4,893 nt of DNA from a virus (lineage: Duplodnaviria; Heunggongvirae; Uroviricota; Caudoviricetes): IMG/VR virus record IMGVR_UViG_2548876958_000007. The stretch is one strand, 5' to 3'. Below, piece by piece: positions 2,792 through 2,923 of the stretch; within the stretch, counting starts at the first letter, position 1, and each line of letters opens with the position of its first letter. A program made the position numbers and the translations under genes. The notes beneath the pieces were generated by a model that was not told the DNA's origin, did not search any database, and was given only the letters and a program-made list of their open reading frames with translations.

Positions 2792-2923
2792 GTAGCTAAA
2801 TCATTAATTAGCTACAAAATGCATCATTTTTATTTATCTCATTGATATGTATATATTTATCGATAAAATATTTTTAGCTGTTATGTGATTAAGCTAAATA
2901 TTAATGCTAATTAATGCGTTAGC
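2792..2923. repeat. AT-rich island containing three inverted repeats built on the motif GCTAA/TTAGC
   Basis: IR1 2792..2815 GTAGCTAA-N8-TTAGCTAC (perfect 8-bp arms); IR2 2874..2897 TTAGCT-N12-AGCTAA; IR3 2906..2923 GCTAA-N8-TTAGC. IR1 and IR3 share the GCTAA-N8-TTAGC architecture. Direct repeat TTAATGC at 2901..2907 and 2911..2917. Confidence 0.6.

What the first reader, a model, noticed from the sequence alone, without database searches (positions are those of the whole stretch)
2792..2923. AT-rich island with three inverted repeats built on GCTAA/TTAGC, two sharing a GCTAA-N8-TTAGC architecture
Within about 130 bp of very AT-rich DNA the pentamer GCTAA and its complement TTAGC occur six times, organised as IR1 (8-bp perfect arms, N8), IR2 (opposite arrangement, N12) and IR3 (N8), plus a TTAATGC direct repeat. 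Repeated sites with fixed 8-bp spacing look like an array of binding sites for a dimeric DNA-binding protein. They lie between the end of the cI/113-aa unit and the promoter of the 311-aa gene, so they could be upstream regulatory sites for that gene, nucleoid-protein silencing sites typical of horizontally acquired DNA, or a remnant recombination site marking the boundary of the inserted cassette.
Basis: seen in the sequence. Interest (0 to 1): 0.55.

Follow-up and report, generated by a model that had tools for sequence, protein, structure and literature searches.

The report
Operator array of a prophage moron
The GCTAA/TTAGC repeats are real, evolutionarily conserved protein-binding sites wrapped around the private promoter of a mobile prophage gene (a P63C-domain protein sitting in the slot next to the repressor), most likely used by that protein to control its own expression.

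Summary
In detail: six GCTAA/TTAGC in 132 bp, against 0.9 expected.

It is also conserved. In 17 lineages of the same gene cassette, from E. coli to Photorhabdus, the upstream DNA is only about 51% identical. It still keeps a 7-bp core, TAGCTAA, at fixed places:
- an AT-rich spacer of constant length (109-113 bp between anchors);
- a proximal palindrome, TAGCTAA-N8-TTAGCTA (IR1), abutting the -35;
- further copies beside the -35 and over the -10 of a sigma-70 promoter for the 311-aa P63C gene.

The cassette is terminator, array plus promoter, gene, terminator. It travels between phages with different repressors, with or without the 113-aa gene. CI and the 113-aa protein are therefore not the binders.

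P63C relatives with a different N-terminal half carry different palindromes at the same promoter position, even in the same hosts and the same slot. My best reading is autoregulatory operators bound by the variable N-terminal half of the P63C protein, probably repressing through a distal-proximal loop. The binder is inferred, not shown.

Rivals are H-NS or a SlyA-type host factor, and a BstA/aba-like self-immunity element. A recombination remnant is not supported.

The parts
2947..2970 (-). Upstream boundary of the cassette: a Rho-independent terminator after the DUF3024 gene (stem-loop 2953-2970, T-run 2947-2952). In this window it is a weakened recombinant hairpin.
   Evidence: A conserved GGTCGCA-loop-TGCGGCC-T6 precedes the array in most relatives. 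Homology to 933W resumes at 2952. Folding energy is -8.2 kcal/mol here against -18.5 in the closest relatives.
2933..2939 (-). Distal 'A(A/T)GAT' anchor (here GTGATCC, which contains a Dam GATC site), 15 nt before the first distal TAGCTAA-type site.
   Evidence: GAT is invariant or nearly invariant in the 16-sequence alignment. The distance from this anchor to the proximal anchor is 109-113 bp in 13 lineages.
2905..2924 (-).
   Evidence: The distal cluster of 2-4 motif copies is conserved in position, but not in internal syntax, in relatives.
2870..2901 (-).
   Evidence: (I8). The aligned columns carry AGCTAA-type sites in most relatives.
2829..2869 (.). AT-rich spacer of conserved length. It holds a TATCAATGAGATA element (2835-2847, - strand; IHF-like at best) and an H-NS high-affinity-like TCGATAAAAT (2860-2869).
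   Evidence: W-ATCA-R is found at the same place in 12 of 17 lineages, but the full IHF consensus in only 2 of 17. The H-NS motif TCGATAAATT is from PMC2094087 and is matched 9/10 here, in this lineage only. Spacer length is constant.
2822..2828 (-). Proximal 'A(A/T)GAT' anchor (AATGATG), 14 nt before the proximal palindrome.
   Evidence: GAT is conserved in the alignment. Spacing was read directly from the sequences.
2792..2815 (-). It ends 2 bp upstream of the -35 hexamer.
   Evidence: Perfect 8-bp arms (I12). An exact GCTAA-N8-TTAGC at this position is found in 13 of 17 lineages, with one mismatch in the rest. The G, C, T, A columns are invariant.
2760..2789 (-). Sigma-70 promoter of the P63C gene: -35 TTGTCC (2789-2784), 18-nt spacer, -10 TATCAT (2765-2760). 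Two degenerate motif copies lie in it: TGCTTA (2778-2783) just after the -35 and AAGCTAT (2763-2769) overlapping the -10.
   Evidence: Promoter scan. In relatives this is TTGACA/TTTACA + (A)GCT(A/T)A ... (T/A)AGCTAnnnT, with AGCTA and the final T invariant. The distance from P1 to the -10 is 46-47 nt.
1797..2732 (-). The regulated gene: a 311-aa protein with a C-terminal P63C domain and a variable N-terminal half of about 150 aa. This half is the proposed binder.
1770..1787 (-). Downstream boundary of the cassette: the terminator after the P63C gene (the tM-equivalent of 933W).
   Evidence: Terminator scan. Folding energy -12.4 kcal/mol. Homology to 933W ends at 1787, and the feature is annotated tM in 933W.

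Best explanation
The island is the cis-regulatory region of a self-contained moron cassette (terminator, operator array plus promoter, P63C gene, terminator). The cassette sits between cI/DUF3024 and pL/oL of a 933W-immunity prophage. The repeats are operator half-sites with core TAGCTAA.

IR1 is the conserved promoter-proximal operator abutting the -35. Weaker copies lie beside the -35 and over the -10. IR2 and IR3 form a distal cluster one fixed distance upstream, about 111 bp.

The most likely binder is the product of the gene itself, through its variable N-terminal half. Binding over and next to the core promoter would repress it. Cooperative contact with the distal cluster, across the AT-rich and possibly bent spacer, would tighten this negative feedback. 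The gene would then be kept at a low, steady level in the lysogen, independently of the phage's CI circuit.

Shown: the sites, their conservation, their fixed geometry relative to a conserved promoter, their mobility with the gene, and their change when the N-terminal half changes.

Inferred: the identity of the binder, the sign of regulation, and looping.
For: 1. Local enrichment is beyond chance. Pooled enrichment in 16 diverged relatives gives AGCTAA 91 against 9.4 expected, z = 28, while the regions are on average 51% identical.
2. Architecture is position-specific and conserved: distal cluster, spacer, TAGCTAA-N8-TTAGCTA, -35, GCT(A/T)A, then AGCTAnnnT at the -10. Anchor-to-anchor distance is 109-113 bp and P1-to-(-10) distance is 46-47 nt.
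3. The array moves with the gene into unrelated contexts: after different cI genes, without DUF3024, or in Arc/Bro-N regions next to tail genes.
4. In a whole 50-kb prophage region the island is the only GCTAA cluster, and it holds the only two GCTAA-N8-TTAGC sites. In 5,426 E. coli genomes the island is found only where the cassette is.
5. Relatives with another N-terminal half have other palindromes at the same promoter position: TGCACGT-N4-ACGTGCA, TGCAAGCA-N2-4-TGCTTGCA and TTTAGCATtATGCTAAA. This includes Serratia and Klebsiella prophages in the same slot, behind the same terminator.
6. Double dissociation. P0037 and P0038 keep 70-72% identity in the N-half but only 48-54% in the C-half, and their loci L228 and L165 keep the AGCTAA array. 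P0045 and P0052 are 51-58% identical overall. The group-B proteins scored (P0040-P0053, which include P0052) show 25-33% in the N-half and 66-86% in the C-half. The loci of P0045 and P0052 carry TGCACG-N6-CGTGCA.
Against: - The link between operator type and N-terminal type is confounded by physical linkage. The upstream DNA and the 5' half of the gene are contiguous and would be co-inherited in mosaic recombination.
- In this window the two core-promoter copies are degenerate, so occlusion of the promoter is weaker here than in relatives.
- 111 bp is not an integral number of 10.5-bp turns.
- The IHF-like element matches the full consensus in only 2 of 17 lineages.
- The invariant AGC before the -10 could be kept for promoter reasons alone.
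Confidence: 0.55

Rival explanations
1. Host nucleoid-protein control. The AT-rich island is silenced by H-NS, and the TTAGC/GCTAA words are sites for a SlyA/RovA-type (MarR family) counter-silencer or another conserved enterobacterial factor.
For: GC content is 0.20-0.28. A 9/10 match to the H-NS high-affinity motif TCGATAAATT lies at 2860-2869 (motif from PMC2094087). The published SlyA consensus TTAGCAAGCTAA is built from the same two pentamers, and SlyA acts at H-NS-silenced genes (PMC5797941). All hosts of the cassette are Enterobacterales.
Against: The SlyA 12-mer is not found. The best matches have 2-4 mismatches and lie at non-conserved places. The refined SlyA requirement TTA-N6-TAA occurs only 0-2 times per region. 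Here the invariant bases are the central AGC, and the spacing is N8 in the opposite arrangement. In the same host genera and the same slot, relatives with another N-terminal half use a completely different G+C-rich palindrome, which a shared host factor does not predict. No similar array is found elsewhere in E. coli genomes. The H-NS-like motif is specific to this lineage.
Confidence: 0.15
2. Self-immunity or decoy element. The P63C protein is an abortive-infection-type effector that acts on phage DNA. The array is its cognate cis element, analogous to aba of BstA, and marks or titrates the protein so that the resident prophage is spared on induction. This can coexist with autoregulation.
For: The genomic slot is the same as for bstA: downstream of cI, with its own promoter and terminator. 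BstA also has a cognate, variant-specific DNA element at the start of its gene (PMC8585504). The neighbouring gene is a PADLOC candidate defence gene. The site type is specific to the protein subtype. There are many copies, 6-9 per locus.
Against: The protein is not a BstA homologue, since it has no PADLOC hit. No defence phenotype is known for any P63C protein; only 3 papers mention the domain, and none is functional. The sites are locked to the -35 and -10 geometry, which points to transcription control. Relatives of other subtypes have just one or two palindromes.
Confidence: 0.15
3. A remnant recombination (att-like) site or the scar of cassette insertion, or simply chance repeats in AT-rich DNA.
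For: The island starts about 28 bp from the right-hand junction with the 933W backbone. AT-rich DNA produces many short inverted repeats (43 pairs).
Against: The junction lies in the terminator hairpin at 2951/2952, which is shared by prophages carrying different cassettes. The motif array is conserved within the cassette in 17 lineages at fixed distances from the promoter. Shuffles reject chance.
Confidence: 0.03

Closest known systems
Multi-operator autoregulated promoters with a distal auxiliary operator (lambda OL/OR-PRM, gal, deo, lac type repression loops)
   Same: Repeated short half-sites with dyad symmetry. One operator lies at the core promoter and a second cluster lies about 110 bp upstream at a conserved distance. 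The gene immediately downstream is the likely regulator.
   Different: The binder is unproven and has no recognised DNA-binding domain. The half-site core TAGCTAA is itself nearly palindromic. Internal syntax of the distal cluster is loose. The regulated gene is a mobile accessory gene, not a lysis-lysogeny switch.
Phage morons (promoter-gene-terminator units between backbone genes, as defined for HK97/HK022; from my own knowledge)
   Same: Terminators flank a single gene with its own sigma-70 promoter. The unit is inserted between cI/DUF3024 and pL and is exchanged among phages. In 933W the same slot holds stk and two further genes.
   Different: Classical morons are not described with an elaborate, conserved operator array of their own.
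BstA and its aba element (Owen et al. 2021, PMC8585504)
   Same: A prophage accessory gene directly downstream of cI. The protein has an N-terminal putative DNA-binding part. A short DNA element at the 5' end of the locus is specific to each protein variant.
   Different: There is no sequence relation (no PADLOC hit). aba is a single 63-bp element with terminal CCCGCC direct repeats overlapping the start codon, not a TAGCTAA array around a promoter. No defence function is known for P63C proteins.
SlyA/RovA sites (consensus TTAGCAAGCTAA, refined TTA-N6-TAA; PMC5797941)
   Same: The same pentamers, TTAGC and GCTAA, in an AT-rich, horizontally acquired promoter region.
   Different: Arrangement and spacing differ: GCTAA-N8-TTAGC, or the fused TTAGCTAA. 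The conserved bases are AGC rather than TTA/TAA. The 12-mer itself is absent.
KorA operator of IncP plasmids (GTTTAGCTAAAC; from my own knowledge, papers listed)
   Same: Contains the same TTAGCTAA palindrome that several relatives carry.
   Different: It belongs to a plasmid-encoded repressor absent here and is a single 12-bp site. The resemblance is probably coincidental.

Membership tests
Operator array of an autoregulated promoter | Repeated, sequence-specific sites enriched beyond composition and conserved among diverged relatives | tested here: met
   (z = 28).
Operator array of an autoregulated promoter | Sites overlap or abut the core promoter of the regulated gene | tested here: met
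   IR1 ends 2 bp from the -35. Copies lie after the -35 and over the -10 in relatives. The two core copies are degenerate in this window.
Operator array of an autoregulated promoter | The product of the downstream gene binds the sites | not testable with these tools
   The support is indirect only: co-variation with the N-terminal half and weak winged-helix-like fold hits. Physical linkage is a confound.
Repression loop (distal plus proximal operators) | Conserved distance between the two site clusters despite sequence drift | tested here: met
   109-113 bp in 13 lineages.
Repression loop (distal plus proximal operators) | IHF site (WATCAANNNNTTR) in the spacer | tested here: inconclusive
   W-ATCA-R is present in 12 of 17 lineages, the full consensus in 2 of 17, and not in the window.
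933W CI operators (oL/oR) | Match to the oR1-3 sequences | tested here: not met
   Operators are found at 4098-4168 and, oL-like, at 1552-1590. None with 4 or fewer mismatches lies in 2733-2995.
SlyA/RovA binding sites | 12-bp palindrome TTAGCAAGCTAA or TTA-N6-TAA at a conserved position | tested here: not met
   The best matches have 2-4 mismatches at varying places. TTA-N6-TAA occurs 0-2 times per region. The consensus is from PMC5797941.
H-NS-silenced AT-rich island | Low GC content and a high-affinity nucleation motif TCGATAAATT | tested here: inconclusive
   GC content is 0.20-0.28. A 9/10 motif lies at 2860-2869 but only in this lineage. Binding is not testable here.
BstA/aba system | Protein homologous to BstA (KilA-N-like N-terminus) | tested here: not met
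   No PADLOC hit. No Pfam domain in the N-terminal half.
BstA/aba system | Locus downstream of cI with its own promoter and terminator, and a variant-specific DNA element at the 5' end | tested here: met
.
BstA/aba system | The DNA element suppresses the protein's abortive-infection activity | not testable with these tools
   This needs phage challenge and induction assays.
Moron cassette | Promoter, gene and terminator inserted between backbone genes, present or absent among related phages | tested here: met
   Homology breaks at 1787/1788 and 2951/2952 against 933W. Terminators lie at both ends. The cassette is present in 2 of 5,426 E. coli genomes, next to another cI.
Recombination / att-like site | Repeats coincide with the junction of the inserted DNA | tested here: not met
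   The junction is inside the terminator hairpin, 28 bp beyond the last repeat.

The most novel reading that the evidence does not exclude
P63C-domain proteins are a widespread, uncharacterised class of prophage accessory or defence effectors. Their exchangeable N-terminal half reads a private DNA code, which is TAGCTAA in this subgroup and other palindromes in others. The multi-copy array next to the gene would serve both as autoregulatory operator and as a BstA/aba-like 'self' mark that exempts the resident prophage from the protein's action.
Probability: 0.15. Interest if true: 0.75.

Novelty: new member of a known kind. Interest (0 to 1): 0.5.

Why it matters
P63C-domain proteins are common in temperate phages; 933W itself carries a second one. 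No function or regulation is recorded for them: only three papers in the library even mention the domain.

This analysis gives the family a testable handle:
- a defined 7-bp recognition core;
- a conserved promoter architecture;
- a subtype-specific operator code that predicts the variable N-terminal half is a new DNA-binding module.

It also shows that the slot between cI and pL, which holds rexAB in lambda, stk in 933W and bstA in BTP1, exchanges fully insulated, self-regulated cassettes by recombination in shared terminators. If the protein proves to be a defence effector, the array is a candidate self-recognition element.

Tried and rejected
- **Scan of 2.9 M viral contigs for TAGCTAA-N8-TTAGCTA.** There were 120+ hits. 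Apart from the known cassettes they were chance matches or unrelated tandem repeats (L054, L108). One group next to a 32%-identical P63C gene (L044, L061 and others) has the pattern inside the coding sequence. The scan was uninformative.
- **SlyA sites.** The consensus was checked in the literature and against 16 regions. It is not present.
- **933W CI operators in the island.** None.
- **A structured RNA or small ORF in the island.** There is no Rfam match and only implausible 22-33-aa ORFs.
- **Divergent promoter.** The best sigma-70-like match of the window, on the + strand at 2842-2869, shares its -35 with the conserved TATCAA. I could not find a -10 at the right spacing in L018 or L006 by eye. 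I rejected it as a conserved feature.
- **Dam control through GATC in the AAGATC anchors.** GATC is present in about 9 of 16 distal anchors by eye and is absent from the proximal anchor here. It is not a defining feature.
- **DnaA-box-like TGTGGATCA at 2929-2937.** Not conserved in relatives.
- **TAGCTAA copies as -10-like elements.** The base frequencies 3' of the core show no conserved T at the -7 position.
- **Fold searches with the full-length model and Pfam on 41 family members.** Nothing significant for the N-terminal half.
- **Literature searches for P63C, L0095 and the motif.** No functional data.

Full report
**Setting.** The window is the early-left and immunity region of a lambdoid prophage with 933W immunity. 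All genes are on the - strand unless noted.

| Feature | Coordinates |
|---|---|
| Nmad5-family gene | 230-853 |
| N | 915-1298 |
| 311-aa P63C-domain gene | 1797-2732 |
| 113-aa DUF3024 gene | 2996-3337 |
| cI | 3398-4105 |
| cro (+ strand) | 4184-4411 |
| cII (+ strand) | 4550-4849 |

The 933W oR operators are at 4098-4168, and oL-like sites with a pL-like promoter are at 1552-1590. The P63C gene and the finding therefore lie between pL/oL and cI. This is the slot that holds rexAB in lambda and stk plus two other genes in 933W.

**The observation.**
- six GCTAA/TTAGC between 2795 and 2923;
- IR1, GTAGCTAA-N8-TTAGCTAC, with perfect arms;
- IR2, TTAGCT-N12-AGCTAA;
- IR3, (T)GCTAA-N8-TTAGC(A);
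- ATTAATGC twice.

GC content falls to 0.20-0.28. Dinucleotide-preserving shuffles of the 132 bp give 0.93 copies on average, and 2 of 20,000 reach six. After correcting for the post-hoc choice of word, 28 of 5,000 do. IR1 and IR3 are 16/18 identical as inverted copies.

**The cassette.** Homology to 933W stops at 1787/1788 and resumes at 2951/2952. Both breakpoints sit at terminators: 1770-1787, the tM-equivalent, and a hairpin at 2953-2970.

The same 1.28-kb unit (window 1716-2994, 98.7% identical) occurs in only 2 of 5,426 complete E. coli genomes. Both are ST131 strains. In the one examined (strain 4993), the unit lies in a P22-like prophage, directly behind a different repressor and without DUF3024.

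The terminator and the sequence to its right are shared by prophages carrying quite different cassettes. The recombination joint is therefore the terminator, not the repeats. The unit has the structure of a moron: terminator, regulatory island, gene, terminator.

**Comparative evidence.** Loci encoding 59-89% identical proteins were collected from viral contigs, GTDB genomes and assemblies. Those with named hosts are Symbiopectobacterium, Enterobacter, Cedecea, Morganella, Providencia, Photorhabdus, Serratia and Klebsiella.

Their upstream regions average only 51% identity. AGCTAA nevertheless occurs 91 times in 16 regions against 9.4 expected (z = 28). The consensus core is T(79%) A(87%) G C T A A, with unspecific A/T flanks.

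The copies sit at fixed places. In gene orientation the order is:
1. an A(A/T)GAT anchor;
2. 15 nt on, a distal cluster of 2-4 copies (the window's IR3 and IR2);
3. an AT-rich spacer;
4. a second A(A/T)GAT anchor;
5. 14 nt on, the palindrome TAGCTAA-N8-TTAGCTA (IR1; exact in 13 of 17 lineages);
6. the -35 (TTGACA/TTTACA; TTGTCC in the window), followed at once by (A)GCT(A/T)A;
7. a 17-18-nt spacer;
8. a -10 of the form (T/A)AGC-TAnnnT, in which AGCTA and the last T are invariant.

Anchor-to-anchor distance is 109-113 bp in 13 lineages, and IR1-to-(-10) distance is 46-47 nt.

**Who binds?**

CI and the DUF3024 protein are excluded as general binders. The cassette, with its array intact, sits behind unrelated repressors, without DUF3024, and in Morganella and Providencia phages in an Arc/Bro-N region beside tail genes.

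A host factor is not excluded, but it is disfavoured. The SlyA consensus (TTAGCAAGCTAA, refined to TTA-N6-TAA; PMC5797941) shares the pentamers but is not present. Nothing like the array occurs elsewhere in a 50-kb prophage region or in E. coli genomes.

The only constant neighbour is the P63C gene itself. Across the wider family the operator changes with the protein:
- Group B (51-58% identical, including 933W's own paralogue L0095) has TGCACGT-N4-ACGTGCA across the -35 and spacer.
- A Pseudomonas/Burkholderia-like group has TGCAAGCA-N2-4-TGCTTGCA.
- Another group has TTTAGCATtATGCTAAA.

Groups A and B occur in the same genera (Serratia, Klebsiella), in the same slot and behind the same terminator.

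The protein is modular:
- P0037 and P0038 share 70-72% identity with the window protein in residues 1-150 but only 48-54% in the C-terminal half. Their loci keep the TAGCTAA array.
- The group-B proteins scored (P0040-P0053) share 25-33% in the N-terminal half and 66-86% in the C-terminal half. Two group-B loci, those of P0045 and P0052, were inspected, and both carry the other palindrome.

One caveat applies. Operator and N-terminal coding half are adjacent on the DNA, so co-inheritance alone could produce the correlation.

**Mechanism proposed.** The P63C protein, through its N-terminal half, binds TAGCTAA sites as a dimer or higher oligomer. It would occupy IR1 next to the -35 and the weaker sites in the core promoter, and so repress its own sigma-70 promoter. 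The distal cluster, at a conserved distance across an AT-rich and possibly bent spacer, stabilises this by looping.

The result would be steady, CI-independent expression in the lysogen. The unit is insulated from pRM read-through by the upstream terminator, which in this window is weakened (-8.2 against -18.5 kcal/mol).

Which steps are shown and which inferred:
- Site conservation and geometry are shown.
- Promoter identity is a consensus inference, supported by conservation.
- The binder, the sign of regulation and looping are inferred.
- An IHF role is weak, since the full consensus is present in 2 of 17 lineages.

**Rivals.**
- H-NS very likely coats such DNA, and a 9/10 match to its nucleation motif lies at 2860-2869 (PMC2094087). 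That motif is specific to this lineage, and H-NS does not explain the invariant 7-mer.
- A BstA/aba-like self-immunity role (PMC8585504) fits the slot, the variant-specific DNA element and the neighbouring candidate defence gene (PDC-S43). However, the protein is not a BstA homologue and no phenotype is known. This reading is compatible with autoregulation, and I keep it as the most novel one.
- A recombination remnant and chance are rejected.

**Verdict.** This is a real, conserved regulatory array belonging to a mobile P63C moron. I file it as a new member of a known kind, the operator array of an autoregulated promoter. The binder is still to be demonstrated, and the link to prophage defence is possible but unproven.

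Noticed in passing
window 2947-2970: The terminator after the DUF3024 gene is a recombinant hairpin. The junction between the cassette and the 933W backbone (2951/2952) lies inside it, and it folds at -8.2 kcal/mol against -18.5 in the closest relatives. Read-through from pRM/cI into the island may be higher in this prophage.
   Followed up: partly
window 2996-3337: The 113-aa DUF3024 protein matches the PADLOC candidate defence family PDC-S43 (E = 7e-42). Together with the P63C cassette this makes the cI-to-pL interval look like an accessory or defence hotspot.
   Followed up: no
window 2860-2869: TCGATAAAAT is a 9/10 match to the H-NS high-affinity motif TCGATAAATT; the reverse strand at 2854-2863 also matches 9/10. 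It is present only in this lineage of the cassette.
   Followed up: partly
window 2842-2869 (+ strand): The best sigma-70-like match in the whole window (TTGATA-16-TAAAAT, 10/12) points away from the P63C gene, antisense to DUF3024 and cI. Its -35 is the complement of the conserved TATCAA element, but I found no -10 at the right spacing in the two relatives I checked by eye (L018, L006).
   Followed up: partly
window 2929-2937: A DnaA-box-like TGTGGATCA (8/9 match) contains a Dam GATC site next to the distal operator. GATC is present in roughly half of the relatives' distal anchors; the DnaA-like box is not conserved.
   Followed up: partly
L241 (933W 17,500-18,600): Phage 933W carries its own 36%-identical P63C gene (L0095) in the nin region. 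It has a TGCACGT-N4-ACGTGCA palindrome over its promoter, an extra half-site 17 bp upstream, and a 5'-UTR block CACAACACGAG shared by group-B relatives. A 933W-like prophage could thus hold two P63C paralogues with different operator codes.
   Followed up: partly
L019/L020 about -260 and L024/L025 about -270 from the gene start: Perfect LexA-box-like CTGT-N8-ACAG sequences lie upstream of some P63C cassettes in other contexts, next to a divergent gene.
   Followed up: no
window 1552-1590: Two oL-like 933W CI operators (TGAACCAATAGTTCG and AGAACTATTGGTACG) overlap a pL-like promoter on the - strand (1576-1548). This confirms that the cassette lies on the repressor side of pL.
   Followed up: yes
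window 1-21 and 230-853: There is a partial match to the lambda cIII thermoregulator RNA at the window's left edge (E = 0.011, cut by the window end). An Nmad5-family gene (nucleotide-modification-associated) lies left of N.
   Followed up: no
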